Position numbers and translations under genes: made by a program. A DNA stretch of 64,000 nt from Ostreococcus lucimarinus. Its lineage: Eukaryota. Within the stretch, counting starts at the first letter, position 1. Every line of letters starts with the position of its first letter. This document shows, piece after piece, positions 16,618 through 46,806 of the stretch. The notes below the pieces were generated by a model, which was given only the letters and a program-made list of their open reading frames with translations, was not told where the DNA came from and made no database searches. The stretch lies in assembly GCA_000092065.1 (NCBI GenBank), contig CP000581.1. One strand, 5' to 3'.

Positions 16618-17430
16618 TCAAATCCCGCCGCTAAGCGCGCGCATGGAGCCGTGGAGCTCATCGATGAACGCCAGCCACGATCGACACTTGTCGACGTCGG
16701 TTTCATCGCGCAGAGCGCCGCGAGCCTGCGCGAGTTTTTCTTCCAGGGCGCGAAGCGTCCTGAGCGACGACTCCTCGATTTCGTCGTCCACGCGCGATTG
16801 CCTACCGACGCGACTCTTTCCGTCGCGCGCGGCCGCCGTACCCGGAGGTGGTTTTGGCGCCGAAACCGTCGCCCCCATCGCGCGCGTCGCGCTCTCGCCC
16901 TTTCGAACGAACATTTCGTGGCGAACGCAAAACGATTCGCCCGCCCGGTTCCGCACGAGCGGCGCCGAGCACGACGACACCGGGCACACATCGTTCGTCA
17001 GCGTCCAACCCATGAGCATTTTCTCCGCGACGCGTCCCGACACGTCCACGACGCCGTCGCGCAGGACCAAGCCGTCGATCCCGCCGTCGATGCGCGTCGC
17101 GTCCTCGCGCGCCGACGGCGACCTCGCGTCGTCCGCGTCGCCGTCCTCCTCCTCCGACGTCCCGACCTCGCGCGCGCGCGCGCCGTCGCGATCACGCGCG
17201 TCCTCGTCCTCGTCGCTCTCCGCCTCCCACGCGTCCACCGCGCCGCTCCGCGCGCCGTGCTCGACGTCGTCGAGTCGCACCGACGCGTCGCCACCGGCGC
17301 AGTAAAACGTCGCGTCCGTCGCGCGCTCGCGCATCAGCGGCGTCCCGCACCGGGCCACCGGGCAGCGCTCTGCCGTGAGCGTCCATCCGCGCAGCAGTCG
17401 CGCGGCGATGCGCGCGGAGGCGTCGCTCAT
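16618..17430 (-). CDS. Protein with two SSSCA1/p27-like zinc-ribbon repeats
   Basis: Two copies of (A/E)(R/K)(L/M)L(R/M)GWTLT(A/N)(E/D)(R/V)CPV…C…PL(M/V)R.R, resembling the Sjogren/scleroderma autoantigen-1 zinc ribbon. Confidence 0.6.
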   Translation of the reverse strand: MSDASARIAARLLRGWTLTAERCPVARCGTPLMRERATDATFYCAGGDASVRLDDVEHGARSGAVDAWEAESDEDEDARDRDGARAREVGTSEEEDGDADDARSPSAREDATRIDGGIDGLVLRDGVVDVSGRVAEKMLMGWTLTNDVCPVSSCSAPLVRNRAGESFCVRHEMFVRKGESATRAMGATVSAPKPPPGTAAARDGKSRVGRQSRVDDEIEESSLRTLRALEEKLAQARGALRDETDVDKCRSWLAFIDELHGSMRALSGGI

Positions 17431-17471
17431 CCGCGACTCGAACTGCCGTCGCCGTCACTCGCGCGCGCGAG

Positions 17472-18910
17472 ATGCGACCGTCGTTGTGGCTCGTCGCGCT
17501 CGGCGCGAGCGCGCTCGGCGCGCCGCGAAGGGAGTACGATCACCAGGTGCGCGAGCGACGCGCACGACGCGCTCGAGCGACGCGCGCGCGCGCGCGCGCG
17601 GCGCGGATTCAAAAGTGAGCACCTCTCGGTGTCTCTCGGAACTGACGACGACGCGCGCGCAGAACGACACGTACGCGCCGCGGTTCCGCGAGTTCGTCGC
17701 GGCGGCGGACGCGCGCGTCGGATTGACGCCGTTCTTTTCGCCGGACACGAGCGCGGACGCGAGCGCGTCGCTCGTGCGCGAGGCGAGGGAAAGCGTGGAC
17801 GTCTTCGCGCCCGCGGTGGAATCGTGGAGCGGGTGCGGCGCGACGAAATCGGGGTGCGCGGGATGCGCGCCGGACCGCGTTCGCGCGAACGAAGCGTTCG
17901 TGTTGTTTCGAGAGCTGCTGAACGCGGCGCATCGAGGCGTGCGGGTGCGGTTGTTGACGAATCGGTTCGATAGCGTTCGAGAGTGTGCGGGCGCGGTTTC
18001 CGTGCTGAGCTACTTCGCGGAGAATTTCGACGTGCGCACGTACACCAGTACGACGTTCATGCACGCGAAGGCGATGATCGTCGATAATAACGTCACCGCG
18101 ATAAGCTCGGTAAACTGGTCGAAGTCGAGTTACTTGGAAAACAGAGAAGCCGGCGTCGTCGCGAGAAGTAAGAGCGTCGCGGAATTCGCGGGCGAGGTGT
18201 TTGAATACGACTGGAGCGTAGCCGAAGTTTGGCGAATGCCGGCAAACGATGGAATCAGCGAGGATGAGATTCAACGAATGAAATCGAGCGAGTGGCTCGA
18301 GCCTTTTCCGATACCATCGAGAAACATCTCCGCGCCGCATTACTCGCCGAAGAAACTGCGTGAGACGTGGTGTAAGGGCGCCGCGGTCAAGGTGAGTGTG
18401 AGCCCAGACGCAGGCGCGGCGACCATGCTCGAGGCGATGAACGCAAGTGCGACGCTGGACATTTACACATACCAAATTACGGACGATTTCTTCGCGTCAA
18501 GGCTATTGAAACTGGCTGATGCCGGCGTAATCGTGCGAATCGTGTTGTCGCGCGCCATCTTTTCCGACGTCGATAGAAAGCTATCCGCAAGTCTCGTCGA
18601 CAAGATGCGCGAGAATGAAAAAATCGTATTTCGCTCATCGCCGCGATATTATCGTTACGCACATTTGAAGATTATGATCGTGGATCGTGGACGCGAGGGT
18701 GAACGCGTCGTCTTGGCGACGGGAAATTTGTCGCCAAGCGATTTGCCGCTCCCAGTCCGTCCATTTCTCCCGTTGCACAAGGGCGGTGCATCCATCAACC
18801 GTGACTTCGAGATCGTGATGCACGACGCAAATATTGTGGAACAGTTTCAAAACTTATTCGACGGAGATATGGCGTACACCTCGCCGTATCGCCGACCGTC
18901 GAAGTTCTGA
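17472..18910 (+). CDS. Secreted/endomembrane phospholipase-D-superfamily protein (PLD3/4-like, two HKD motifs), 2 exons
   Basis: Exon 1 (17472..17546) encodes a signal peptide (MRPSLWLVALGASALGAPRREYDHQ) in a frame not listed in the ORF track. GTGCGC donor; ACTGAC box (A at 17645); acceptor CAG ends at 17662. Exon 2 (17663..18910) contains HAKAMIVDNNVTAISSVNWS and HLKIMIVDRG…ATGNLS HKD motifs. Confidence 0.8.
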
Positions 18911-19019: not shown

Positions 19020-19655
19020 TTATGACGACTTGACCGCACGCTTCTCCCTCTCCTCCATCTTATGCATCACTTTGCGCGTAGCAATCAACCCGATAATCAA
19101 CCCACACCCGACGACGAGCAACCCTCGGCTCCCTCTGCTAACCTTGCCTTCGACAATTCCAGCCCCCAAAGCGCTCTTCACGGACGACACCGTGTTCGAC
19201 TTTGCCGCTCTCCTCGCCGCGAGTAACTCTTCCAGCGTCTGATGCGCCTCAGCGTCGAACGCCCGTCCCGACGCACGCCGCTGCGTCCCGCTCGCCGCCG
19301 CGTTGATTTCATTCCACTCCCTCGCCGGTGCTACCCCGGACGACTTCATCGCGCTTCGCTCACGCCACGCTCGCGCGGCATCTAACCTCGCGCGCATCCC
19401 GGGGCCGTAGACTTCGTCTTGAGGATCCGCCTCGGCGCCGCGACGTTTCAAAAGTGCTTCATAGGCAGCCTTGAGGGCGTGAAACTCTTCCTCCGTCGTG
19501 GTGCCGTCGCTCGTGTCGGGATGAAGCACGCGCGCGCGCGCGCGAAACGCCTTTTTTATTTCATCCACGGCTGCGCCTTTGGCGACGCCGAGGACGACGT
19601 GGGGGTCGTCCGCCTTCGGCATAGCGCTCCGGGCAGTGACGCGCGGGAGCGACAT
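19020..19655 (-). CDS. DnaJ (J-domain) protein with C-terminal transmembrane anchor
   Basis: HPD tripeptide in the J-domain (…ARARVLHPDTSDG…) and a C-terminal hydrophobic segment (LLVVGCGLIIGLIATRKV). Confidence 0.8.
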   Translation of the reverse strand: MSLPRVTARSAMPKADDPHVVLGVAKGAAVDEIKKAFRARARVLHPDTSDGTTTEEEFHALKAAYEALLKRRGAEADPQDEVYGPGMRARLDAARAWRERSAMKSSGVAPAREWNEINAAASGTQRRASGRAFDAEAHQTLEELLAARRAAKSNTVSSVKSALGAGIVEGKVSRGSRGLLVVGCGLIIGLIATRKVMHKMEEREKRAVKSS

Positions 19656-19794: not shown

Positions 19795-20730
19795 CTACAG
19801 AGCGCTCATACCGAAACGCTCGCGCAAATATTCGGCGACGACGAACGTCACCACTGTTTGCGGTCCGAGTCGCATGTAATTCGCGCTGAAGCCCCTAAAT
19901 AATCCAAACGGGCCGTACCGAGCGAGAACGTCGACGAGCGTGCCTCTGACCGTCGGCGCGTTCGCGCCGCCGCTTGCCGCAGCGTTCGCGACGTACAGCC
20001 GCGTCTTCAGCATATCCACTGGATTCGTCGTCGCCGTCGTCACCACCCCCGTCAACATCGCCACCGCGAAGTGCAATCGCCACTTCGCGCCGTCGGCGTC
20101 GACGAGCCCGAGGTCGACGACGCGACGTTTCACCTCCCCGTACGTCGCCACCTGCGTCGCCGTGAGCACCGCGGACCTCATCATCGCCAACCCGCTCCCG
20201 CGCCAAAGCCCACCCACGCCGCCCTCGCGCACGACCGCTCGCAAGTGTCCCACCAACGTCGTCGACGCCCCCGCCTCGGTCTGCATGCGCGTCTTGAGCA
20301 ATTCCGTTGGATTCAGCGCCGCCGCCGCGAACGCTCCGCTCGCCGCCCCCGCGAGCAGTCTCGTCGCCACCCTCGGCGCGCCCTCGCGCTCGCGCTCCAC
20401 CGCGGGCGCCACCACTCGCAGCATCGGATCGTACAGCCCCAATCGGCACCCCCCGTACAGCGCCGCGCGCGTCAGCGCCGGCGAAATCCCTCGCCAAAAC
20501 GTCCCCAGTCCCTCCCTTCGCCCGACGTCGAGCGCCGTCCCCACGAGCGCGCCCGCGCGCCTTCGCGCGCTCGTCTGCATGCGCACCTTGATCACGTCCA
20601 GCGGGTTCGTCACCGTCGTCGCGCACATCACCGCGACGCCGCTGACGGCGACGTTCGCGGCGACGCCCGGCTCGACGCCATCGCGAGGCCGCATTGTGAC
20701 GCGTCGCGTCGCGCCGCCGCGCGCCGCCAT
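19795..20730 (-). CDS. Mitochondrial carrier family protein (UCP/dicarboxylate-carrier-like)
   Basis: Three Mitochondrial-carrier signature repeats: PLDVIKVRMQ, PTELLKTRMQ, PVDMLKTRL. Start ATG 20730 is residue 225 of ORF 19795..21402. Confidence 0.85.
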   Translation of the reverse strand: MAARGGATRRVTMRPRDGVEPGVAANVAVSGVAVMCATTVTNPLDVIKVRMQTSARRRAGALVGTALDVGRREGLGTFWRGISPALTRAALYGGCRLGLYDPMLRVVAPAVEREREGAPRVATRLLAGAASGAFAAAALNPTELLKTRMQTEAGASTTLVGHLRAVVREGGVGGLWRGSGLAMMRSAVLTATQVATYGEVKRRVVDLGLVDADGAKWRLHFAVAMLTGVVTTATTNPVDMLKTRLYVANAAASGGANAPTVRGTLVDVLARYGPFGLFRGFSANYMRLGPQTVVTFVVAEYLRERFGMSAL

Positions 20731-23353
20731 GTCGGACCTGTTCGCCAGGCTCAGCGCGCAGAAACCGCGCGAGCGCGCGCGTCGCGCGTCCGGCGCGCTC
20801 TCGCGATCGACGCGCGAAGCGGCGCGCGACGGCGGCGACGCGACGGTTGATGTCGAAGCGACGCCGTCGGCGTCGACGCGAAAGCGCGCGCTCGGACCGT
20901 CGGTGTCCATCGTCGGCGACGCGCCGTCGGACGAGGTGGTGTCGAAAGCGGTGCCGGTGCCGCGAACGGCGTCGACGGGGCGACCGCCGCTGCGAGCGGT
21001 GGGCGTGAACGGACGGACGAGCGCGGGGACGACGCGCGAGGGGAACAAACGCGGCGACGCGAGGAGCGAGAGCGAGAGCGACGGGGAGACGAGCGGTGAT
21101 TTGATGTTCGACGCGGAGAGAAGCCGAACGTCGTCGATGTCCGCGGGATCGACGCGCGAGGAGGAGGATCGAGCGACGGAACCGCTGCCGAGGAAGACGA
21201 ACGCGAGGCGGACGACGCGAACGCCGGTGACGACGGCGCGGTTCGACGAACAGTTGAAGCTCGCGGAGGCGACGAAACGGTGCCTGAGGGAGACGATGGT
21301 TTCTATTCGTGCGAATGGTCTCGATCCAGCGCGCGTGTTCGCGTCGTTGGCGAAACAGACGCCGGGAGGTGGTGGTTCGTTCGAGGCGTTGGCGCGCGCC
21401 ATCGACGCGCTGTCGCCGACAAAGCCGACGAAGGGGAAGCGCTTGAGCTTTTCTACGGCGGAGACGCAGACGCCGGTGACAGTGATGCGAGACGCGGCCT
21501 GTGATGTGAGCGAAGATGCCAGTTTTGATTCGGCGGGCGAAAGTTTCGAGGCGACGGCGGAAGAAGAGGAAGTTGTCGAAGAGGAAGGGACTTTTCCGAC
21601 GTGCGATTGCGGCGCGGCGGACTGTACTTTGGTGAAAATGCACGCGCGCGGCGGGCCTTTCGCGCTCTTAGATCACACTCGAACGGTTTCGTCGATCGAG
21701 TCCGAATCCATCGCGGAGACGGATGACGAAAACGACGCCGACGACGAATCGGTGGCTGGAACGGAGGTCGACGACTTGGACGATTTAGACGACGCCATGG
21801 ACGCGCTCGATTTGAACACTCGAAAGGATGACCTCGACGAAGATCAGACGGCTTTGACTGAGTCAGAAGTCGTTGAAGATGAAACGATCGAACCCATCGT
21901 GAAGTTCGGGACGCATATACGATTCGACGATTCGATCGTCGTCGATTCACCTCAAGTTGCCGGTGGTCGCGACGAAGTTGAAGCTTTGAAAGGTGAGCCG
22001 GAGTTGCCTACCGCGAAGATCGAAAATCACGTTCGATTCGAAGATTCAACTGCTTCAGATTCACCTGCCGTCGCTAGCGTTCGTCGTCCACGAGCGCGCG
22101 AGAGACGGCGCAAGGTTATTCTTGACAGCGACGCCGAGGACGAGAGCGAGTCGGACGAAGTCACGCTCAACGACGACGACAATGATGACGATGAAGCATC
22201 GGAAGAAGATCAGGACGCACCCGTGGTGAATACGCGACCACGCCGCATCGCAGCGCGGAAGCCACTCGTGCCTCGCAACGCTTTCGTGGACGATGATTTA
22301 TCCGGAAGTGAAGATTTTGATGACATCGATGACGAACTTCACTCTAGCGACGATGATTTCATCGACGACGACGACGACTCGTACGCGGATGATGATGCGG
22401 TGGAATACGACAGTGACGAAGAAAACGTGACACCAGTGCCGCGAAAGCCATCAAGTAAGATTGACGTGGCTAAGGAAATGAACGATAAGCTCGTCATCGA
22501 CGAGTACAGCCCGTCGAATCTGCACACGCCGACGCCACCAAAGGAGCTCTCGCCGACGTCTGCAGTGAAAGCGTTCAGACCACCACCTTCGCACAGTAAG
22601 GCTCTTCAGTCTGCGATTAAGAGCGTGACCAAGAATGGTGTTCAAAAGTTGAACTTTAATCGAGACAAGGACGCCATCACCGCTGCGCTATTCGCAGAGT
22701 TCAACGAAAAGGTGTTCGATGCCGAGCTTCCGTCGGACTTTGAAGTGACGTGGAACAAGAAGCTGCTGACCACGGCGGGCCTGACACATTACAAACGTTC
22801 AACGAAATCTGGTGAGACAACGTACAGCGCGCGCATCGAACTATCCAACAAGGTGCTGGACACAGTTGAAAAACTCGAATCCACGTTGCTCCACGAGATG
22901 TGTCACGCCTCCGCTTGGCTCGTCGACAAGACCGCGAAACCACCTCACGGGCCGGTGTTTAAGAAGTGGGCTAGTCAAGCGATGAAAGTTTATCCCGAGA
23001 CGAACGTCAGTACGTGCCACGCGTACACGATCCATCAGCCGTACAAATGGCGTTGCACCAGAGACTGGTGTCAACAAGAGTACGGCCGTCACAGCAAGTC
23101 AATCGATATCACGAAAAAGGCGTGTGGTGCGTGCGGGGGGAAGTTGGAGTACCTTGGCAAGTTCAAGAAGAATGGGGACGAAGTAGCCGCTCGAGCACCG
23201 ACGGCTTTTTCGTTGTTCGTGAAGGAGCACTTCAAATCCACCAAGAACGCTCTCGGCGCTTCGACTCCGCACAAAGACGTCATGAAACATTTATCACAGC
23301 GATGGAAAAATGAAACGGGCAAAGACGAAGTGATTGAACTCACCGACGAATGA
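20729..23353 (+). CDS. GCNA/ACRC-like protein: acidic disordered region + SprT-type zinc metalloprotease + zinc ribbon + HMG box
   Basis: Start ATG 20729 is residue 264 of ORF 19940..23353; the upstream part of that ORF is antisense to the carrier gene. HEMCH zinc-binding motif in a SprT-like domain (LESTLLHEMCHASAWLVD), a CGACGGK zinc ribbon, and a C-terminal HMG box (APTAFSLFVKEHF…HKDVMKHLSQRWK). Long D/E-rich IDR in between. Confidence 0.75.
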   Translation: MSDLFARLSAQKPRERARRASGALSRSTREAARDGGDATVDVEATPSASTRKRALGPSVSIVGDAPSDEVVSKAVPVPRTASTGRPPLRAVGVNGRTSAGTTREGNKRGDARSESESDGETSGDLMFDAERSRTSSMSAGSTREEEDRATEPLPRKTNARRTTRTPVTTARFDEQLKLAEATKRCLRETMVSIRANGLDPARVFASLAKQTPGGGGSFEALARAIDALSPTKPTKGKRLSFSTAETQTPVTVMRDAACDVSEDASFDSAGESFEATAEEEEVVEEEGTFPTCDCGAADCTLVKMHARGGPFALLDHTRTVSSIESESIAETDDENDADDESVAGTEVDDLDDLDDAMDALDLNTRKDDLDEDQTALTESEVVEDETIEPIVKFGTHIRFDDSIVVDSPQVAGGRDEVEALKGEPELPTAKIENHVRFEDSTASDSPAVASVRRPRARERRRKVILDSDAEDESESDEVTLNDDDNDDDEASEEDQDAPVVNTRPRRIAARKPLVPRNAFVDDDLSGSEDFDDIDDELHSSDDDFIDDDDDSYADDDAVEYDSDEENVTPVPRKPSSKIDVAKEMNDKLVIDEYSPSNLHTPTPPKELSPTSAVKAFRPPPSHSKALQSAIKSVTKNGVQKLNFNRDKDAITAALFAEFNEKVFDAELPSDFEVTWNKKLLTTAGLTHYKRSTKSGETTYSARIELSNKVLDTVEKLESTLLHEMCHASAWLVDKTAKPPHGPVFKKWASQAMKVYPETNVSTCHAYTIHQPYKWRCTRDWCQQEYGRHSKSIDITKKACGACGGKLEYLGKFKKNGDEVAARAPTAFSLFVKEHFKSTKNALGASTPHKDVMKHLSQRWKNETGKDEVIELTDE

Positions 23354-23597: not shown

Positions 23598-24191
23598 TCA
23601 CATCGCCGGAACTTGGAAGTCTGACGCGTTCGGCGGCACGGCGCGACGAGTGACGGTTTGGATAACTTGACGAAGCATTTGGTTCTCTCTTTCCAGAGTC
23701 GTCACGCGGTTTTCCAACTCGTGCAATCGGTTCGCCTTTTGCGCCTCCGTTTGTTCCAAAGACGCGAGATACGCCTTTTTCCGTTCTCGCGCTTGCTGCG
23801 CCGACACGCGGTTTCGCAACAAACGCTTGAGCCGTTTTCTCTCCTTCTCATCCGTGATCGTGTTCAATCGTTCCTCGTCCGCCTTCACGCTCAGCGCCGT
23901 GTTCCCGTGCGGAATGTGCATCGAGTTTCGTCCGACGTACCCCATCCCGAACCCACCCTGATTCGCCGCCGCCCGTCCCCCTCGCGCCGTCGGCTTGCTC
24001 ACCGCCCCGCTCGGCGGCGTCCCGCTCCCTCGCGCCCCCGCCCCCGCGCGCTTCGCCCGTCCGCTCCCGCCGCTCCCCGCCGTCATTCCGGTCGACGTGC
24101 TCGCGCTCGACGTCTGATTCACCGCCTGAAACGTCTGAAACGTCGACGTGAACGCGCTCCGCTCCGTGCTTCGCGCGCCCACCAGTGGCAT
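23598..24191 (-). CDS. HY5: bZIP transcription factor, HY5-type
   Basis: Basic region [24 protein letters not shown] followed by a leucine zipper. This is near-identical to the plant HY5/HYH basic region. Confidence 0.8.
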
Positions 24192-24594
24192 TTACGTGCG
24201 CGTCCCGCGCGCGTCGTCGCGTCGTCGTCGCGTCCGCCGTCGCGCGTCCGTCTTTGCGCGCGTCGAGGCGAGCGCGCGTTCGCGTCTTTGCGCGCGTCGA
24301 GGCGCGCGTGCGGGCGCGCGTCGGTCGGCGCCGCGCGTCGTCGTGTGCGCGCGTCGCGCCGAGGGCGTGACGTCATCGCGCGTCGACGTCGCGAGATCGA
24401 GATCGAGATCGCGACCGGGATGGGAGACGGGACACCTCCGGGGTCCGCGAAACAGTGTTTAGATTACAGGCTATGAAGGACGCGACGCGCGCGAACGAGC
24501 GAGGACGCGCCGGAGACGCGATGGTCGGCGGGTCCTCGCGCGCGCGCGCGCGAGGACGTCGAGGGCGGGAACTAGAGTGGGACGCGCGAGACGC

Positions 24595-25284: not shown

Positions 25285-25627
25285 CCGCGCCCGATAATCG
25301 CCGCTGCGGCGCCTGCGTCGCGCAAAGTCACATAAATCGTCAGCGCGTTTCAAGTTTGAAAATCGCATTCGCCACCGCGCCTCGCCGCGCCCCTCTCCGC
25401 GCGTCCGCGTCGCCGCGCACCGCCGCGGAGGTTTCAAGCGTCACCCGCGCGCCTTCGCTCGCGTCGCTCGCGCACCTTGAACCGTTTCCCGTGGAGTCGT
25501 CGCGCCATATCGGCGCGAGTCGTCGAGTGCGGCGCCGCAGACGCGCGCGCGCGACGCCTCGATCGCGCCGCACGCCCCGCACGCGCGCGAGAATCGGTGA
25601 ACGGGACGAAGGAAGACATCGCGCGCC

Positions 25628-26855
25628 ATGGCGAACGCCACGGATCCGCTGGCGAAGACCGTGCGCGGGATGGACCCGCAGGTGCGTCGCGCGCGGCGGC
25701 GCGGATTCGCTCGAAACGACGCGCGAAACGCGCGAAACGCGCGTTCGCGAGGCGACCAGAGACGCGAGACTGACGATGCGATTCGCGCGCTCGTTTTCGT
25801 CGACGCAGAATATCATGGAGCGCATCACGCGCGATAAGGTGTACGCGATGACGTACTGGAAGGAGAAGTGTTTCGCGGTGAGCGCCGAGGCGCTCGTGGA
25901 CTTGGCGGTGGATTTACGCGCGGTGGGGGGAATATACGGCGGGAACAATCGAGCGACGGAGTTTCTGTGTCTCACGCTGAAGCTGTTGCAGATTCAGCCC
26001 GAAAAAGAGATCATATTGGAGTTCATAAAGAACGAAGACCACAAGTACGTGCGGTTGCTCGGGGCGTTTTATCTGCGCTTGGTCGGAAAGCCGACGGATG
26101 TATACCAGTATCTCGAGCCTTTATTGAACGATTACAGGAAGGTTCGGTATCGCAGCCGAGATGGCAAGTACGTGCTGACGCACGTGGACGAGTTTGTGAA
26201 CAACTTGTTGACGAAAGATATGTTTTGCGACGTCGCGTTGCCGCGGGTGCCGCATCGACAGGCGCTCGAAGCCGCGGGATCGCTCGAACCGCGCGTGAGC
26301 GCGTTAGAAACCGACGTGAAAGATTTAGAAGAGCAGTTGGAGAATGCGGTGGAGGAGGCGATCGGGCGCGAGATGCGGATGGACGTCGACGGGGACGACG
26401 ACGAGTTGGACACGACGGCGACACGAGACGCCGCCGGTAAGCGCCCACGTGAGGAGGATGAAGAGGGCGAGCTAGCGAACGCCTCCACGCCAGCGGCCAA
26501 AGTGAACCGGCGGCAACCAGTCGATCTTCACGATGAAGGAAACGCGCGCCATCGTTCGAGGTCGCCGCAGCGTCGCGGCGGCGGTGGCGACTACGGCGAG
26601 CGTCGCGGCGGCGGCGTGAGAGGGTTGTCGCGAGATCGCGGCGGAAATCGCGGTGATCGCGGCGAACATGCGCGCCCAGGCGATCATCGCGCTGATTACT
26701 TTCGCGAGTCTGAAAAAAAGGAAAAGAAAGAGAAGAAAGAGAAGAAGGAAAAGAAGGAAAAGAAGGAAAAGAAACCCGCCGCCGAGGTCGACCCAGAAAT
26801 CGCGGAGGCGAACGCCATTCGCGCCAAGCTCGGGTTAAAGCCCGTGCGAGGTTGA
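25628..26855 (+). CDS. PRP38: Pre-mRNA splicing factor PRP38, 2 exons
   Basis: Exon 1 25628..25681 (MANATDPLAKTVRGMDPQ) and exon 2 25809..26855 (NIMERITRDKVYAMTYWKEKCF…LCLTLKLLQIQPEKEIILEFIKNEDHKYVRLLGAFYLRL…). These match the PRP38 N-terminal domain. The C-terminus is a charged (EKK)n / RS-like tail. 127-nt intron, GTGCGT donor, ACTGAC box (A at 25773). Confidence 0.9.
26712..26775 (+). repeat. Purine-rich (GAAAAG/GAGAAG)n coding repeat giving the (EKK)n tail of PRP38
   Basis: gaaaaaaaggaaaagaaagagaagaaagagaagaaggaaaagaagg… encoding ESEKKEKKEKKEKKEKKEKK. Confidence 0.7.
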
Positions 26856-31595: not shown

Positions 31596-33317
31596 TCAAC
31601 GCGAGCGGTGCTGAGATCGACCCTTCAGTAGTCGAAGACTCTGGCGCGCCTTGGCGACGCGCTCGCTGTATTCGCGCTTGCGAACAGTTTCTTCGTGCGT
31701 AGTCCGAATGAACTCTATGCGCTTGCGCTCGAGCAGCATGCGTTGCTGCTCTGCAGAGTTCGACACTTCGCGTAAAGTTTTCTCCCGGGCGGTCTGCGCG
31801 GCGAAAATCGGAACCATTTCTTCTTTGTACGCCTCGAACTCGGCGATCGACTTGGAGGCTCGAACGACAAAGTCTTCGTCCTTCACGCTCAACAACTTCA
31901 TGGGAAACGGATCCGGCGCGAGATCGAACTGCTCGAGAAATGTGTGCCTCGGGCGAATGCGTTGATCCAACGAAAGGGAAAAGTACGCGGGATACTTGAC
32001 GCACGTATCCTTGGAGCCGCCGAGCTCGTTCGTCAAGTACTTGAACTTTGGCCTAAGCGAGTCCTCGACCGAAAGCGAAAAGAACTGCGAAAGGCGCGTC
32101 ACTGTCAACGCAGTTTCGCTATCGTTCATGCCAATCTCGCCGAGAAATCGAAGCTTCTCTTCAAGATTTTCGAAAGAGTAGTGAAGCATCTGCGGGTGCC
32201 GCGTGATCATCTTCACCACGTTGTCCTTGCTTATACCGAGGTCACGCAAAAACTCCACGCGTGGCTGAATCTGGTTTTCAATAGAAAACGTCAACACTGC
32301 GGGCGACCGCTGGATCAACAGGGGGATATCCTCCGCCAAAATTCCAACCTCTTGCTTGAGATACTGCACGCGAGGCATCAATCCCTTTTGCACGCTGAGG
32401 TGTAAAATGCTTGGTTGCTTACCGAGCACGTCGGCCAACTTTTCCTGGGGAACACCGATTTTGGTGAGGTATCTACAGCGCGGAATAGAGTGTCGATTTC
32501 TCTGAAGCAAAATACGTGGATCCTTGTTCACGATCTGCCGTAAGTTTTTCTTCTCCAATCCGAGTTCGCTTTGCAAGTACTCCACGCGAGTAATCACTCG
32601 CGGCACCGGTCGATTGAGAAGCTCGGCGCAATTCACCACTACTTTTTCTAAATCCGCCGTCTTGAGACCGAGGGAGATGAGGTAACTCACCATCGGGCGC
32701 CACTGAGGCTCGAGAGCGAGCTTCTTGCTGAGCTTGCTGAACTGCGCGTCGCTCAGCGTCTCGTACTCTTGATGTTCCATCGTCTTCCAATCGACAAAAC
32801 TCTGCCAATCGCTCTTCTTCGCCGTCTTTCTCGCCGTTTTCTTCGCCGCGACCGCGTTCGCCGTCGTCGCCACGGGCGCCGGCTTCTTCGCCATCAACGG
32901 CTTCCCCAACGCCTGCCGACTACGCAATCGCAGCATCGTCGCCTCGATCAACGCGCGCGCCTCCTCCGCCGCCGCGTCTTTCGTCTCATCGCACTCTTCG
33001 TCCTCACCGAACGTCCCGATCGCACCGTCATCAAAAACCGCGGGCATCATCGCCGGCGGCGCCTCGCGTCCTCGCGCCGCGTTTCTCTTCGCGCGCGCCG
33101 CCGCCCTCGCCGCGGCGTCCTCGCCTTCGCTCGATTCCGAATCCTCCCCCGTCAGCGCTCGCGAAACCACCCCTCGCGCCTCACCGACGCCCATCGCGCG
33201 ACGCATCGACGACTCGTTCGTCCTCGTCGACGCTCGCGCGCCCGAGTTCGTCCTCGCGCGCGCGCCGCGCGCCGCCACCGCGCTCGAAATCATCCGCGGC
33301 GTCGCGAATCGCGCCAT
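31596..33317 (-). CDS. mTERF-domain protein (organellar transcription termination factor family)
   Basis: Start ATG 33317 is residue 167 of ORF 31596..33815. Contains multiple ~30-aa mTERF repeats (…LISLGLKTADLEKVVVNCAELL…YLTKIGVPQEKLADVLGKQPSIL…FLRDLGISKDNVVKMITRHPQML…). The N-terminal region is transit-peptide-like. Confidence 0.8.
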   Translation of the reverse strand: MARFATPRMISSAVAARGARARTNSGARASTRTNESSMRRAMGVGEARGVVSRALTGEDSESSEGEDAAARAAARAKRNAARGREAPPAMMPAVFDDGAIGTFGEDEECDETKDAAAEEARALIEATMLRLRSRQALGKPLMAKKPAPVATTANAVAAKKTARKTAKKSDWQSFVDWKTMEHQEYETLSDAQFSKLSKKLALEPQWRPMVSYLISLGLKTADLEKVVVNCAELLNRPVPRVITRVEYLQSELGLEKKNLRQIVNKDPRILLQRNRHSIPRCRYLTKIGVPQEKLADVLGKQPSILHLSVQKGLMPRVQYLKQEVGILAEDIPLLIQRSPAVLTFSIENQIQPRVEFLRDLGISKDNVVKMITRHPQMLHYSFENLEEKLRFLGEIGMNDSETALTVTRLSQFFSLSVEDSLRPKFKYLTNELGGSKDTCVKYPAYFSLSLDQRIRPRHTFLEQFDLAPDPFPMKLLSVKDEDFVVRASKSIAEFEAYKEEMVPIFAAQTAREKTLREVSNSAEQQRMLLERKRIEFIRTTHEETVRKREYSERVAKARQSLRLLKGRSQHRSR

Positions 33318-33813
33318 CCTTATCGCCGACTCGCGCGTTTCTCGCGCCTCCGCGCGACGCGCGCGCGCGGTCGCCGCGTCGCCGCGTTCGCGTCGCTCGC
33401 TCGCGCGCCTCGTGCGCGCGCGCGTCGACGCGCGCGACTGTGACGTCGCGATTCGACGCCGATTCGCCGACGTCGGCGGGGACCCCACCCCTCGCGCGCG
33501 CGCGCGCGGCATTCGCGCGCGCACGCGCGAGCCGCTCGACGCGACACGCGCGCGGTCGACGAGGGACGCGCGTTCGCGACGCGCGCGCGCGGAGCCGCGC
33601 GACGAGGCGCGCGCGACGAGGCGCCGCGCGCGCGCGCGCGGCGACGGCGGGGCGCGGCGGCTGCGGCTCGAACGCGCGCGAGGGAACTCGCGCGACGCGC
33701 GCGCCGAGCGACGGCGCGCGACGTGAGCGCGCGGTCGCGAGCGCGTCGCGAGCGCGTCGCGAGCGCGAACGGGCGGTGAACGCCGGTCGCGCGCGCGCGG
33801 ACGGGAGGGCGTC
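33318..33813. promoter_or_regulatory. CpG/(CG)n-rich divergent intergenic island between mTERF (-) and NUMOD3-like gene (+)
   Basis: 496 bp dominated by GCGCGC/CGACGCG repeats between divergent start codons. Confidence 0.3.
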
Positions 33814-35313
33814 ATGGCGACGGCCGCGCTCGGGGGTTTAGGGCGACTTCGCGCGGACGCGCGCGCGAAGACGACGCGCGCGAAGACGCGACGACGCGCG
33901 AACGCGCGGGGATCGCGGGCGAAGCTCGGTGCGCTGCAAACGCCGGTCGAGGGCGCGGATGGGGGCGCGAGCGCGGGAGAGGGGGGGTTGGAGGCGCGCG
34001 CGACGCCGACGCGAGGGAGGGACGCGGCGCGCGCCGCGAGCGCGCGGTCTTTGACGCGCGCGTCGGTCGTGGCGATGCGATCGGACGGTGCGCGAGGTTC
34101 AAATGGATCGGGTGGTGCGTTGAAGGAGATTTCGTGGACGCACTGCGTGGAGAATTTGGGTAAAGGCGATCCGGGAGTCGAGCACGACTACAAGAGGGTC
34201 GTCTTCGTGACGCCCGACGACGGTTTCATCATGGGCGCGCGCAAGACGCTGTACCACTTGAACGGCTGTCCTTGTCCGACGTGTAACGTCTTCAGATGTC
34301 GCGTGCGAAACGGCGTCGATATTAGCGGTGAGCCGATCAAGGTTGTGGTTATTAGCGAGAAGGAGTTTGAAACCTTGAAAGCCGTGGGTACGGTGAAGGA
34401 CATGGCCAAGGTGGAACAGTTGCGACGCCGTCGAATCGGTACCGCGAACACTGGTAAGGTGCCCTGGAATAAAGGCGGCAAGCATAGCAAGGAAACGATC
34501 GAAAAAATTCGCGCGACGACGCTCATGCACATGGCGAATCCCGCGTACAGAGAGCGCCTAAAGGCGTCGTACAACGGATCCAACGCTCGTCATTCCGAGT
34601 ACACGCGAGCGAAGATCAAGAGGGCGTCGGTGGAAAGAGCGCGGGCGCGAAAGCTAGAGACAGCTGGCTTGGAGTCCAAACAGGTCTGGGGCCTGAAGAG
34701 AGGTATGAACGGCGCGGCTTCAGCGGGGATATTCGTTCGCCGAAACTCCGCGGTGATGACGGTGACCTTTGGAGTCAACGGCACCGCCGACATCGCACGG
34801 CTTCGACAACGTCAAAAGGATGAAGAAAAGGTACGCCTAAAGACGCAACGCGAGTTGAAGAAGCAGCTCGTCGCCACGCTCGTCTTGAAGCGTCGAGCGA
34901 TGCGGAAAGTGAAGCCAAAGGTGGCCAACAAGCGAACGCGCGAGCACCGCGCGAAGATCTCTAAAGCCATCGCCGACAAGTGGCGCGATCCAGAGTACAG
35001 CGCGAAAATGCGCAAAAAACGCAAAAATTCCGCGGCTAGCGCCGCTTCTCAACAGCATCCGAGCGTCGATCCGGCGAAGAAGAAACTTCTCGCCGAAATC
35101 AAAGCGATGTATCTCAAGGCTGACGCCGCGGTGAAAACGTTGCGCGCTCGCGCCGACAACGGCCTCACCGTCGATCCAGCGATGCTCGCGCAAGCCACTC
35201 AAACGCGCAAGCAAACGCGCACGATGCTCGAGACCGTGCGAAAGAACATAGAACAGGAGTTCCAAGCTCGAGACGCCGCCGCCGCGGCGAAAAAGACGGC
35301 GCGCCCTCGGTGA
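33814..35313 (+). CDS. Conserved hypothetical protein with CPCPTC zinc motif and two NUMOD3-like DNA-binding motifs
   Basis: Motifs GKVPWNKGGKHSKETIEKIRAT and NKRTREHRAKISKAIADKW resemble NUMOD3 (nuclease-associated modular DNA-binding) repeats. Basic, coiled C-terminal half. The family assignment is tentative. Confidence 0.55.
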   Translation: MATAALGGLGRLRADARAKTTRAKTRRRANARGSRAKLGALQTPVEGADGGASAGEGGLEARATPTRGRDAARAASARSLTRASVVAMRSDGARGSNGSGGALKEISWTHCVENLGKGDPGVEHDYKRVVFVTPDDGFIMGARKTLYHLNGCPCPTCNVFRCRVRNGVDISGEPIKVVVISEKEFETLKAVGTVKDMAKVEQLRRRRIGTANTGKVPWNKGGKHSKETIEKIRATTLMHMANPAYRERLKASYNGSNARHSEYTRAKIKRASVERARARKLETAGLESKQVWGLKRGMNGAASAGIFVRRNSAVMTVTFGVNGTADIARLRQRQKDEEKVRLKTQRELKKQLVATLVLKRRAMRKVKPKVANKRTREHRAKISKAIADKWRDPEYSAKMRKKRKNSAASAASQQHPSVDPAKKKLLAEIKAMYLKADAAVKTLRARADNGLTVDPAMLAQATQTRKQTRTMLETVRKNIEQEFQARDAAAAAKKTARPR

Positions 35314-41607: not shown

Positions 41608-42635
41608 CTAAAATACATCTCTCGGGTCCACGTCTAAAGTTCTCTTGAGCAAAACGACGACGCATAAAGCCACGAGCGCGGTGGACGCCGAACCGAGCAT
41701 GACGAACGTCTTTCTCGGACCCGCCCCGACGTCTTCTAGATTTTTGCGCCCGTCGTCCGGCGGCTTGGAAAATTTCTTTCCAGAGGTAAACAAGGGAGCG
41801 AGCCCGGCGTAGCCCATCGCCGCGCCGGCCAGAAAGCCCCATAGGTGTCCCACGGAGTTCACGACGTGCGTGCCATCCTCTGTGGGGACACTCGCGAGGT
41901 ATTGAAAACCAACCGAGAAGAACCCGCAATAGAGCAATCGCACGGTGAAGCCGCGAAGGTTCCACTCGTTCTCGACGTTCAGCGCCGAGTAAAGTAACAA
42001 CGCACCGAAAACACCCATCAGACCGTCACTTGAGGTTACGTGCAAAGTCGTCGGGTCGAACGCCATCGAGCCGATGCCCCCCATCGCCGCGCTCAACGCG
42101 TACACCGCCAGAAACGGCCTGGTGCCGAGCAAGGCTTCGGCTTCGGCTCCAATCGTCACCAACCCGACGTTGACGAGCGCGAAATGCAACAACCCAAAGT
42201 CCACGAAACACGCCGTGAATGTTCGCATCCACTGACTCCCGTACACCACGGCGTTATCGAACAACGCCAAACGAATGAACAAATCTCCGCCGTTGGACGT
42301 CCCGCTCCGCAGCAGCGCCAAATCCGTCGCGAACGCCGCGCAGTGCGCGAACGCGATGAAGTACGCCACTGTCGGTTCGACCGTCGGCACGTTATACATC
42401 GTCGACAACGGGCTCCAATACGGTTTCCACGACGCGTCCGTGACGCCCTCGGGCGTCGCTCGCCGTCTCGACGCCTCCGCCGCGTTCGCGTCCCGCGCCT
42501 TCGCCTTCGCCTTCGCCTTCGCCTTCGCCTTCGCCTTCGCCTCGGTCGCCTCGCGCGCCTCGGTCGCCGTCGTCGACGCGTCGTCGCCGTTCCTATCGCC
42601 CGCGCGATCGACGAGCACGGACGCCAGCGCGTCGA

Positions 42636-42679
<44 letters not shown>

Positions 42680-42864
42680 TTTGCGTCGTCGTCGACTGCT
42701 CCCTCATCCAGATGCGTCGAAACGGTCTCCCCGACGCCCTCGCTCGCGTCCGCGTCCGCGCCCGCGCGCGTCGTCGCGCGCGCGACGCGCCCACCGCGTC
42801 GCGCGCGCGCGTCGACGCGTCGCGTCTGCGCGCAGACGCGCGCGCGAAGCGACCGCGACGTCAT
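41608..42864 (-). CDS. Rhomboid-family intramembrane protein with low-complexity N-terminal region
   Basis: Start ATG 42864 is residue 88 of ORF 41608..43125. Six+ TM helices with the rhomboid His motif (GHLWGFLAGAAMGY). The GxSG box is degenerate (TSSDG). N-terminal region contains Thr14 and (AK)7 runs encoded by (CGT)14 and (GCCTTC)n microsatellites. Confidence 0.7.
42499..42540. repeat. (GCCTTC)7 hexanucleotide repeat (encodes (AK)7 on minus strand)
   Basis: gccttcgccttc… run within the rhomboid N-terminal region. Coordinates ±6. Confidence 0.7.
42637..42678. repeat. (CGT)14 trinucleotide microsatellite (encodes Thr14 in the minus-strand rhomboid gene)
   Basis: Perfect triplet run. Coordinates computed from residues T150-T163 of ORF 41608..43125. 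Confidence 0.8.
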
Positions 42865-43048
42865 CAGAGCGCGACGCGCAGTGACGCCGACCGACGCGAT
42901 GTCGCGCGACGCCGACGCCGACGCCGACGCCGACGGCGACGCGACGCGCGATAAGCGCGCGCGCGAGGACGTCGCGGACGCGGGCGCGGACGACGCGAAG
43001 CGCGCGCGCGCGGACGCGAGCGCGGGCGGCGCCGCCGCGGATGAAAAC

Positions 43049-43051
<3 letters not shown>

Positions 43052-43090
<39 letters not shown>
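43052..43090. repeat. (ACG)13 trinucleotide microsatellite in the rhomboid/TRM2 shared upstream region
   Basis: acgacgacg… run between the rhomboid ATG (42864, -) and TRM2 ATG (43130, +). Read as T-run in the spurious upstream part of the TRM2 ORF. Confidence 0.75.
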
Positions 43091-43091
<1 letters not shown>

Positions 43092-43129
43092 GCGCGGTCG
43101 CGCTCGCGGGCGCGAGCGGCGGCACGGCG

Positions 43130-45774: not shown

Positions 45775-46806
45775 ATGTTCCGCGCCGCGCTCGCGCGCTC
45801 GACGCGCGCGCTCGCGGCGACGCGCGCGACCGCGGCGTCGTCGCTCGCGCCGCCCGTCGTCGCGCGCGCGCGCGTCGCCGCGACGGCGGCGCCGACGCCG
45901 ACGTTCCGCGCCGTCGCCATCGCGCGCGCGTTCGCGACGCGCGCGGGCGAGGGCATGCGCGCGTACAAGCCCACGAGCCCTGGACAGCGCGGGCGCATCA
46001 CGACCTCGCGCGAGGGCCTGCACCGAGGACGCCCGCACAAGGCGCTCGCGGTCGGGCTGCGGAAGACGGGCGGGAGGAACGCGCGAGGGCGGATCACGGT
46101 GTGGCACCGGGGCGGCGGCGCGAAGCGACTGTACCGAATGATTGATTTTAAACGCGATCTCACGGGCGCGCGAGGGGTGATACGAAGGCTGGAGTACGAC
46201 CCGAATCGCACGGCGCGAATCGCGCTGGTGGACTACGAGGGAGGACTGGGGACGAGGTACGTGCTGGCGCCGCACGGCGCGCGCGCCGGGGACGAGTTGG
46301 AGAGCGGAGCGGAGAGCGATATAAAGATCGGAAACGCGCTGCCGTTGAAGAATATACCGCTGCAGACGACGATACATAATATTGAGCTCGTGCCGGGACG
46401 AGGGGGGCAGATGTGTCGATCGGCGGGATCGGCGGCGACGCTCGTGAAGAAGGGCGACGACGGGTACTGCGTCGTCAGGCTTCCGAGCGGCGAGCAGCGT
46501 TTAGTTTTGGAGGGATGCATGGCGACGATCGGGATGCTGTCCAATCGTGGGCATCAAAATCGTAATATCGGTAAAGCCGGCGCCAATCGTTGGCGTGGGA
46601 TCAGGCCGACGACGCGAGGCGTCGCCATGAACCCGATCGACCACCCGCACGGCGGCGGCGAGGGTCGCACGTCGGGCGGTCGTCCCAGCGTCACGCCTTG
46701 GGGCGTCCACACCAAGGGTAAGCGCACGCGCAATAACAAGCGCACCGACCGATTTAGGGTGAGCAGGCGACCGAGGAATCGCAAGAAGTACAACGACAAC
46801 CGGTAG
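45775..46806 (+). CDS. RPL2: Organellar ribosomal protein uL2 (nuclear-encoded, with N-terminal transit-like extension)
   Basis: Conserved uL2 core (…GRNARGRITVWHRGGGAKRLYRMIDF…MNPIDHPHGGGEGRTSGGRPSVTPWG…) preceded by an Ala/Arg/Thr-rich presequence. Confidence 0.9.
   Translation: MFRAALARSTRALAATRATAASSLAPPVVARARVAATAAPTPTFRAVAIARAFATRAGEGMRAYKPTSPGQRGRITTSREGLHRGRPHKALAVGLRKTGGRNARGRITVWHRGGGAKRLYRMIDFKRDLTGARGVIRRLEYDPNRTARIALVDYEGGLGTRYVLAPHGARAGDELESGAESDIKIGNALPLKNIPLQTTIHNIELVPGRGGQMCRSAGSAATLVKKGDDGYCVVRLPSGEQRLVLEGCMATIGMLSNRGHQNRNIGKAGANRWRGIRPTTRGVAMNPIDHPHGGGEGRTSGGRPSVTPWGVHTKGKRTRNNKRTDRFRVSRRPRNRKKYNDNR

What the first reader, a model, noticed from the sequence alone, without database searches (positions are those of the whole stretch)
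20728..20731. Divergent gene pair whose start codons overlap in a single palindromic CATG
The minus-strand mitochondrial-carrier gene starts at the revcomp of CAT 20728-20730 and the plus-strand GCNA-like SprT/HMG gene at ATG 20729-20731. Both are the first in-frame ATG of otherwise well-supported proteins and both sit in good Kozak-like context (ccgACATGGcg on minus, gccgccATGtcg on plus). If both are genuine, each mRNA 5' UTR must lie antisense inside the partner's coding region, so the two genes share one extremely compact bidirectional initiation region. Alternatively one protein starts at a downstream Met (MRPRDG… for the carrier, 12 codons in).
Basis: seen in the sequence. Interest (0 to 1): 0.55.

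Follow-up and report, generated by a model that had tools for sequence, protein, structure and literature searches.

The report
Back-to-back genes almost sharing start codons
Two neighbouring genes of the tiny marine alga Ostreococcus lucimarinus point away from each other with almost no DNA between them, but the apparent sharing of one CATG as both start codons is most likely a coincidence, because one gene very probably starts 12 codons further in.

Summary
The CATG at 20728-20731 is real. Both of its ATGs are in frame with real genes: a 3-repeat mitochondrial carrier on the minus strand and an SprT-like protease on the plus strand. The window is Ostreococcus lucimarinus chromosome 1 or a near-identical strain.

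The SprT start at 20729 is well supported, because orthologues in related lineages begin at the same MS(x)DLFAKLSAQKPR.

The carrier most probably starts at the downstream Met (ATG at 20694-20692, 299 aa):
- A 1-bp insertion between the two ATGs occurs in 5 of 30 same-species contigs. It puts the CATG-ATG out of frame and leaves the carrier intact.
- Frame-breaking indels otherwise lie outside confidently coding sequence.
- The downstream ATG is the antisense of a motif (CA[TG]TG...CGAC) conserved upstream of SprT in most related lineages, so the 34 bp between the starts is SprT upstream DNA.
- An in-frame antisense ATG is expected about one time in three. It also occurs in a relative with a 76-bp non-coding spacer, and at a second pair in this window (33813).

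What remains is a 34-bp head-to-head spacer, the shortest found for this pair together with one distant group (others 74-202 bp). This is an extreme but ordinary case of Ostreococcus genome compaction. No transcript-start data were available.

The parts
20728..20731 (.). Palindromic CATG. It holds the SprT start ATG (20729-20731) and, on the other strand, an in-frame ATG (20730-20728) 12 codons upstream of the likely carrier start.
   Evidence: Sequence. Start contexts.
20729..23353 (+). SprT-like (Spartan/GCNA-type) protease gene of 874 aa: a long acidic, disordered N-terminal part, an SprT domain with HEMCH, then a zinc ribbon and an HMG box that both score below Pfam's cut-offs.
   Evidence: Pfam. 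Match to the solved Spartan SprT domain 6mdw, E = 6e-7. The N-terminus MS(x)DLFAKLSAQKPR is conserved at the start of the orthologues L007, L008, L019, L020 and L023. Codon-usage signal in this frame is positive from about 20750 onward.
19795..20694 (-). Mitochondrial carrier (SLC25, UCP/dicarboxylate-carrier-like) gene, favoured model of 299 aa starting MRPRDG.
   Evidence: Pfam finds 3 repeats. This exact 299-aa product is the common gene call, and the two related 299-aa variants are indexed in 226 and 461 blocks of the collection. Only this start is available in the insertion allele. The start Met of the L011/L032 lineages aligns here.
20695..20730 (-). Twelve optional codons (MAARGGATRRVT) that would extend the carrier to the CATG. 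They are probably not translated.
   Evidence: They are in frame in 25 of 30 contigs and out of frame in 5 of 30. There is no other variation in this stretch. The stretch is too short for a codon-usage test.
20695..20728 (.). The 34-bp spacer between the two likely start codons. It is probably the SprT 5' leader and core promoter.
   Evidence: An alignment anchored on the SprT ATG across lineages. Spacers in relatives are 74, 76, 80, 185-186 and 202 bp, and 34 bp in the L030/L036 group.
20692..20703 (+). Conserved element CATTGTGACGCG upstream of SprT. Its CAT is the antisense of the carrier's Met-13 ATG.
   Evidence: The same element, CA[TG]TG(T)G[AC](C)CGAC, lies roughly 12-30 nt upstream of the SprT ATG in L007, L008, L020, L011, L012, L032 and L033 (about 25-37 nt in the window). 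L030/L036 carry only ccattcgag/ccattggag at the same distance, and L025 shows no such element.
20724..20725 (.). Site of a segregating 1-bp insertion (C on the carrier strand, CATGGCG[C]GCG). It frameshifts the 12-codon extension.
   Evidence: Present in L016, L017, L095, L099 and L104. It is linked to G at 20593. In this allele the CATG-ATG opens a 278-codon out-of-frame ORF.

Best explanation
This is a conserved head-to-head gene pair of Ostreococcus lucimarinus: a mitochondrial carrier on the minus strand and an SprT-like protease on the plus strand.

Shown:
- The spacer between the two genes is about 34 bp in this species.
- SprT translation starts at ATG 20729.
- The 12 codons between the downstream ATG and the CATG tolerate a frameshift in nature.
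- The 34-bp spacer carries the element CATTGTGACGCG, which is conserved upstream of SprT in most related lineages. The carrier's ATG is the antisense of its first three bases.

Inferred:
- The carrier starts at the downstream ATG (20694-20692, MRPRDG, 299 aa), not at the CATG.
- The carrier mRNA begins inside or at the edge of the 34-bp spacer, giving a leader of at most about 34 nt.
- The spacer serves as the SprT leader and core promoter.
- The remaining promoter elements of both genes lie inside the partner's GC-rich coding DNA.
- The antisense ATG of the CATG is in frame by chance and is normally not in the carrier mRNA.
For: 1. SprT start. Orthologues in related lineages begin MS(T/I)DLFAKLSAQKPR at the same codon, while the upstream sequence differs.

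2. Frameshift allele.
- A 1-bp insertion between the CATG and the Met-13 ATG occurs in 5 of 30 same-species contigs, from several samples and assemblers.
- It is in complete linkage with a SNP 132 nt away.
- In this allele an in-frame stop lies upstream of Met-13.
- The rest of the carrier is 99% identical.
- The CATG-ATG would instead open a 278-codon junk ORF.

3. Other indels. In the short-read haplotypes, every other indel whose length is not a multiple of 3 lies outside confidently coding sequence. Multiples of 3 lie in coding DNA.

4. Homology of the spacer. The 34 bp aligns with the SprT-proximal element conserved in L007, L008, L020, L011, L012, L032 and L033.

5. Position of the start Met. 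The start Met of the L011/L032 lineages aligns with Met-13. An N-terminal length of 18-25 residues before helix 1 is typical of the family.

6. Coincidence shown directly.
- In relatives L020/L024 the CATG-ATG is also in frame and open over a 76-bp spacer.
- Sister lineages have 74- and 80-bp spacers, so that spacer is non-coding.
- At the second CATG pair (33813), the mTERF frame has no codon-usage signal for about 140 codons next to the CATG.

7. Context. Overlapping UTRs and abundant bidirectional pairs are described for O. tauri (PMC4378021, PMC4035068).
Against: - No transcript-start or ribosome data were available.
- The CATG-ATG has a strong context (G at -3, G at +4). It would be the first AUG of any carrier mRNA that starts between 20731 and about 20907.
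- The in-frame state is the majority allele, in 25 of 30 contigs.
- The 12 codons align without gaps with the 12-codon N-terminal extension MASARDAARDAR of the closest relatives. Their similarity to those codons scores above most background windows. However, other GC-rich coding windows score equally well.
- Two of the five insertion contigs come from a long-read project that is noisy at another locus. They carry no other indel in 1.7 kb here.
Confidence: 0.65

Rival explanations
1. Both starts are genuine in the majority allele. The ancestral spacer was deleted completely, so the carrier's own start codon was fused to the antisense of the SprT start codon. Each mRNA leader then runs antisense through the partner's coding region. 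The carrier is made as a 311-aa protein, and Met-13 is only a back-up start.
For: - The closest relatives (L007, L008, L020) start exactly 12 codons upstream of the (S/M)RP.DGV motif and have no Met at position 13.
- The similarity of the 33 nt to their codons 2-13 scores 11-14, against a background mean of about 2.
- The Kozak context is strong, and this would be the first AUG for any transcript start up to 180 nt upstream.
- One IMG gene call gives 874 aa plus 311 aa, overlapping by 2 nt.
- Overlapping UTRs are common in Ostreococcus (PMC4378021).
Against: - The frameshift allele in 5 of 30 contigs leaves an otherwise intact carrier. On this model it would be a near-null allele.
- The 33 nt matches other GC-rich windows equally well.
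- Both ends of the 33 nt align at least as well with the SprT-proximal spacer of relatives, including the rare heptamer CACAATG shared with L011.
- Met-13 would be an unexplained lineage-specific gain.
Confidence: 0.25
2. Both AUGs are used. Transcript starts are heterogeneous or scanning is leaky, so a mixture of 311-aa and 299-aa carrier is made. The insertion allele then acts as a natural regulatory variant, because its upstream AUG opens an overlapping ORF that lowers carrier output.
For: - Both ATGs have good contexts: G at -3 and G at +4 for the first, A at -3 for the second.
- The allele sits on two haplotype backgrounds, which fits an old polymorphism that has been maintained.
Against: There is no direct evidence. 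This is the least parsimonious reading, and a 278-codon overlapping ORF would be expected to be costly.
Confidence: 0.1

Closest known systems
Bidirectional (head-to-head) gene pairs with a shared promoter region, as catalogued in human and plants and in Ostreococcus tauri (2288 pairs counted in PMC4035068; PMC1487180)
   Same: The two genes are divergent, the starts are very close, and the arrangement is conserved across related lineages.
   Different: The spacer here is only 34 bp between start codons. That is far less than the 100-1000 bp usually considered, so promoter elements must lie in coding DNA. Co-regulation was not tested.
Head-to-head overlapping protein-coding genes whose 5' ends overlap, such as human INO80E/HIRIP3 (PMC11890862; survey in PMC8076222)
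   Same: If either transcript starts more than 34 nt upstream of its AUG, the two mRNAs overlap antisense at their 5' ends.
   Different: In the known cases the overlap was mapped from transcripts and involves UTRs or first exons of intron-containing genes. Here the overlap is only inferred, and an overlap of coding sequences is probably not real.
[quoted passage not shown]
   Same: Same genus-level biology: about 1.4 kb per gene, minimal intergenic DNA, and neighbouring transcripts that run into each other.
   Different: Those reports are genome-wide and mostly concern 3' or tandem overlaps. This is one specific divergent pair, for which the evolutionary shrinkage of the spacer (about 200, then about 75, then 34 bp) can be followed.
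Start/stop codon overlaps of bacterial operons (ATGA, TAATG), recalled from general knowledge
   Same: Codons of two genes share nucleotides.
   Different: Those overlaps are on the same strand and serve translational coupling on one mRNA. A divergent CATG cannot couple translation, because the two codons are on different RNAs.

Membership tests
Bidirectional head-to-head gene pair | Two genes on opposite strands, transcribed away from each other, with 5' ends less than 1 kb apart | tested here: met
   The carrier is on the minus strand and SprT on the plus strand. Their start codons are 34 bp apart, or overlap by 2 nt.
Bidirectional head-to-head gene pair | The arrangement is conserved in related species | tested here: met
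   The same gene order (bZIP, SprT, carrier, DnaJ, PLD, p27) is found in lineages where the carrier is 52-63% identical.
Bidirectional head-to-head gene pair | A shared promoter and co-expression | not testable with these tools
   No expression or transcript-start data were available. Only a conserved element upstream of SprT was found.
Head-to-head overlapping protein-coding genes | The mature transcripts overlap at their 5' ends | not testable with these tools
   Overlap is inferred to be likely from the 34-bp spacing. No transcript data were found in the literature searches.
Head-to-head overlapping protein-coding genes | The coding sequences themselves overlap (shared CATG) | tested here: inconclusive
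   The overlap is in frame in 25 of 30 contigs, but a frameshift allele is tolerated in 5 of 30. The conserved upstream element argues that the stretch is non-coding.
Mitochondrial carrier family (SLC25) | Three tandem Mito_carr repeats, each with the PX[DE]XX[KR] signature | tested here: met
   Pfam PF00153 matches three stretches, E = 3.6e-54. The signatures NPLDVIKVR, NPTELLKTR and NPVDMLKTR are visible in the translation.
SprT-like / Spartan-type metalloprotease | An SprT domain with the HExxH zinc-binding motif | tested here: met
   PF10263 scores 88.8 bits against a cut-off of 25.6. HEMCH is in the translation. The solved Spartan structure 6mdw matches at E = 6e-7.
GCNA-type architecture (acidic disordered region + SprT + zinc finger + HMG box) | A C-terminal zinc ribbon and an HMG box | tested here: inconclusive
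   Zn_ribbon_SprT scores 23.6 bits (cut-off 28.1) and HMG_box 18.2 bits (cut-off 25.4), so both are below threshold. The acidic N-terminal region is visible in the translation.

The most novel reading that the evidence does not exclude
In the majority allele both proteins really initiate at the same palindromic CATG, so there is no intergenic DNA at all and each mRNA leader is obligatorily antisense to the partner's coding region. The 1-bp insertion allele would then be a natural switch. It converts the carrier's start codon into the start of a 278-codon overlapping upstream ORF and moves initiation to Met-13.
Probability: 0.25. Interest if true: 0.5.

Novelty: new member of a known kind. Interest (0 to 1): 0.25.

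Why it matters
The practical lesson concerns annotation. In GC-rich compact genomes, stop codons and ATGs are both rare near gene 5' ends. A partner gene's CATG start will therefore often look like 'the first in-frame ATG' of a divergent neighbour. Two such cases occur in this 64-kb window alone, and public gene callers give this carrier 299, 311, 500 or 535 aa.

The biological point is modest. The pair shows how far a bidirectional region can shrink: about 200 bp, then about 75 bp, then 34 bp across related lineages. Both genes and a short conserved element upstream of one of them are kept throughout. This makes the pair a convenient natural test case for asking where promoters sit when there is almost no intergenic DNA.

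Tried and rejected
- **Exact look-ups.** The 311-aa and 874-aa products are not on record. The only 311-aa cluster representative (P0001) comes from a contig that ends in a Nextera adapter 8 nt upstream of the CATG, so that call is an artefact.
- **Reference gene model.** I tried to recover the NCBI reference model of the carrier through the neighbouring DnaJ gene. The NCBI chromosome was not among the places returned.
- **Codon usage.** The log-likelihood profile locates the switch of coding strand at about 20690-20750 but cannot resolve 36 nt.
- **Homology of the 33 nt by alignment score.**
  - The relatives' N-terminal codons score 11-14.
  - The SprT-proximal spacer scores up to 10.
  - Other GC-rich coding windows score up to 14, so the test is ambiguous. 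MAFFT gave a mixed alignment.
- **Motif as a general signal.** I tested whether CA[GT]TGAC / CA[GT]TGTG[AC] marks gene starts across the window. It lies within 60 nt upstream of an ATG opening a long ORF in 6 of 18 hits, against 2 of 16 for a reversed control. That is not convincing.
- **Naming the relatives.** The clusters carry no organism names.
- **Literature.** Searches for Ostreococcus transcript-start, CAGE or long-read RNA data found nothing usable. Derelle et al. 2006 is not held in the library.
- **Insertion as an assembly error.** I rejected this because the same base is inserted in five contigs from JGI, megahit and a long-read project. The insertion is linked to a SNP, and those contigs carry no other indel in 1.7 kb.
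Full report
**1. The observation**

The tetranucleotide CATG is at 20728-20731.

- The minus-strand ATG (20730-20728) is in frame with a 311-aa product. Pfam finds three Mito_carr repeats in it (E = 3.6e-54).
- The plus-strand ATG (20729-20731) opens an 874-aa product with an SprT-like domain (E = 2.7e-25).
- That product also matches a zinc ribbon and an HMG box, but both fall below Pfam's cut-offs.
- The C-terminal part matches the solved SprT domain of Spartan (6mdw, E = 6e-7).

One statement is wrong. Neither ATG is the first in-frame ATG of its ORF, because both frames stay open through the partner gene. The minus ORF runs up to 21402, with in-frame ATGs at 20910 and 21402. The plus ORF runs back to 19940, with in-frame ATGs at 20579 and 20285.

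**2. Organism and context**

One window ORF (46899-47969) is identical to XP_001415578.1 of Ostreococcus lucimarinus CCE9901. Neighbouring ORFs fall in 90%-identity clusters that contain proteins of that strain's 1,152,508-bp chromosome. The window is therefore O. lucimarinus chromosome 1 or a near-identical strain.

The species is abundant in marine metagenomes. I collected 29 further contigs of it that span the junction.

Relatives whose carrier is 52-63% identical are presumably other Ostreococcus lineages, but they could not be named. They keep the same gene order: bZIP, SprT, carrier, DnaJ, PLD, p27.

**3. The SprT start**

In the lineages represented by L007/L019/L023, L008 and L020/L024, the SprT orthologue begins MS(T/I)DLFAKLSAQKPR. 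This matches MSDLFARLSAQKPR here, while the upstream DNA differs. The codon-usage signal in the SprT frame is positive from about 20750 onward. ATG 20729 is well supported as the SprT start.

**4. The carrier start**

Four lines of evidence favour the downstream Met at 20694.

*(a) A natural frameshift.*
- Five of 30 same-species contigs (L016, L017, L095, L099, L104) carry an extra C directly after CATGGCG.
- This is not an assembly artefact. It appears in JGI, megahit and long-read assemblies.
- It is in complete linkage with G at 20593, and it occurs on two backgrounds at 20580.
- The contigs that carry it have no other indel in 1.7 kb.
- In this allele the CATG-ATG is out of frame and an in-frame stop precedes Met-13.
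- The rest of the carrier stays 99% identical.
- The CATG-ATG would open a 278-codon junk ORF across the whole carrier gene.
- Such an allele can persist only if the carrier mRNA normally does not contain that AUG, or if the carrier is dispensable.

*(b) Other indels.* Among the short-read haplotypes, every other indel whose length is not a multiple of 3 lies outside confidently coding sequence. Multiples of 3 lie in coding DNA. The only exceptions are a 13-bp deletion (L113) and a 1-bp deletion (L109, a scaffold containing Ns). Both fall in the repeat-rich 42.5-42.9 kb region, whose coding status is itself uncertain.

*(c) A conserved element upstream of SprT.*

| Lineage | Sequence upstream of the SprT ATG |
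|---|---|
| Window | cattgtgacgcg (20692-20703) |
| L011/L012 | cattgtgcgacgc |
| L032/L033 | cagtgtgcgacgc |
| L008/L020 | cagtgaccgacgc |
| L007 | cagtgatcgacac |
| L030/L036 | ccattcgag / ccattggag (weaker resemblance) |
| L025 | no such element seen |

- The element lies roughly 12-37 nt upstream of the SprT ATG.
- The carrier's Met-13 ATG is the antisense of the CAT at the start of this element.
- The stretch right after the CATG (GGCGCGCG) also matches the relatives' spacer.
- The 34 bp is therefore best read as SprT-proximal upstream DNA, not as carrier coding sequence.

*(d) Position of the start Met elsewhere.* In the L011/L032 lineages the carrier's start Met aligns with position 13. 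Most homologues have 18-25 residues before the CAT(T/S) anchor in helix 1. Met-13 gives 23 residues and Met-1 gives 35.

**5. Evidence the other way**

- The three closest lineages (L007, L008, L020) have a 12-codon N-terminal extension (MASARDAARDAR/K).
- It aligns without gaps to MAARGGATRRVT, and those lineages lack a Met at position 13.
- The 33 nt is more similar to those codons (score 11-14) than to most nearby GC-rich windows.
- The signal is not unique, however. Other coding windows reach the same scores, and the SprT-proximal spacer scores up to 10.
- The CATG-ATG has a strong context (G at -3, G at +4).
- It is the first AUG for any transcript start up to about 180 nt upstream.
- The in-frame allele is the majority.

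I therefore keep the 'both genuine' reading at about 0.25.

**6. Chance**

- Stop codons occur at only 0.6-0.8% per codon in the 75-80% GC zones at gene 5' ends.
- 33 of the 174 CATG sites in the window open ORFs of at least 100 codons in both directions.
- The SprT start is preceded by C in the window and in five of the seven related lineages examined: L007, L008, L020, L011/L012 and L025.
- The 33 nt has no stop in any frame, so the chance that the antisense ATG is in frame is about one in three.

The data show this directly. In L020/L024 the same antisense ATG is in frame and open across a 76-bp spacer. The sister lineages have 74- and 80-bp spacers, so that spacer is non-coding.

A second pair in this window shares a CATG at 33813-33816: an mTERF gene on the minus strand and a NUMOD3 gene on the plus strand. 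There the mTERF frame loses its codon-usage signal above about 33400. Its likely start is therefore around Met-174 (33296) or Met-204.

**7. What is really there**

The real feature is a head-to-head pair whose spacer has shrunk.

| Lineage | Spacer between start codons |
|---|---|
| L011/L012 | 185-186 bp |
| L032/L033 | 202 bp |
| L007, L019, L023 | 74 bp |
| L020/L024 | 76 bp |
| L008 | 80 bp |
| L030/L036 | 34 bp (to the first in-frame carrier ATG) |
| O. lucimarinus (window) | 34 bp (35 bp in the insertion allele) |

- The blocks TCACTGG and GACTCGAG, conserved in the 74-80-bp spacers, are absent here.
- With 34 bp there is no room for a conventional nucleosome-free bidirectional promoter.
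- The SprT leader probably occupies the spacer. The carrier leader is then very short or overlaps it. Other promoter determinants must lie in the GC-rich 5' coding regions. All of this is inference.
- It fits what is described for the genus. O. tauri RNA-seq assemblies concatenate neighbouring genes 'due to overlapping UTRs' (PMC4378021), and 2288 bidirectional pairs were counted in O. tauri (PMC4035068).
- Head-to-head overlapping coding genes are also known in human (PMC11890862, PMC8076222).

**8. Verdict**

- The SprT start is right.
- The very compact bidirectional region is real, but it is an extreme instance of a known property of this genome.
- Interest is low to moderate (0.25).
- Decisive data would be 5' end mapping, initiation-site profiling, and a comparison of strains with and without the insertion allele.

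Noticed in passing
window 33813-33816 (ORFs 31596-33815 minus strand, 33814-35313 plus strand): A second divergent pair shares a CATG: an mTERF gene (739-aa ORF) and a NUMOD3 gene (499-aa ORF). Each ATG is the first start after an in-frame stop. Codon usage suggests that mTERF really starts about 170-200 codons downstream. The NCBI model of the NUMOD3 gene is only 360 aa.
   Followed up: partly
window 42862-42901; L030 3853-3892: The same 34-nt distance between divergent start codons (CAT...ATG) recurs twice. One case is the rhomboid / tRNA-methyltransferase-like pair in this window, which also has CAGTGACGCCGAC 20 nt upstream of its plus-strand ATG. The other is the SprT/carrier pair of the distant L030/L036 group. 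This could be coincidence or a minimal module.
   Followed up: partly
window 17100-17500, 20550-21000, 24000-24450, 25350-25800, 33300-33900: GC content peaks at 72-80% at gene 5' ends and falls to about 50% towards the 3' ends, with GC skew switching sign at divergent junctions. This gives a strong 5'-to-3' GC gradient within genes.
   Followed up: no
window 42496-43092: There is a cluster of length polymorphisms in short repeats (CGCCTT, CGT and CGA units), mostly multiples of 3, among same-species contigs. They lie in the low-complexity N-terminal regions of the overlapping rhomboid and methyltransferase ORFs.
   Followed up: no
L094 1-42: The contig behind the 311-aa cluster representative P0001 ends in the Nextera adapter AGATGTGTATAAGAGACAG, fused 8 nt upstream of the CATG. 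This is adapter contamination in a public assembly.
   Followed up: yes
L110, L111/L117 (also L099 and L104, from the same project as L110): Assemblies named contig_#### and one JGI long contig carry many 1-bp indels inside conserved coding regions, for example in the PRP38 and Sin3 genes. They should be down-weighted in any indel analysis.
   Followed up: yes
window 20285-20287 and 20579-20581: The only SprT-strand ATGs upstream of 20729 both sit in the repeated GTCTGCATGCG. This is the antisense of the carrier signature R-M-Q-T, and both ATGs are in frame with SprT.
   Followed up: no
window 19020-19655, 33814-35313, 45775-46806, 54144-55244: The NCBI reference models of several genes are shorter than the ORF read from its first ATG: DnaJ 200 vs 211 aa, NUMOD3 360 vs 499 aa, mitochondrial RPL2 283 vs 343 aa, DUF1995 319 vs 366 aa. 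Start-codon assignment is uncertain throughout this genome.
   Followed up: no
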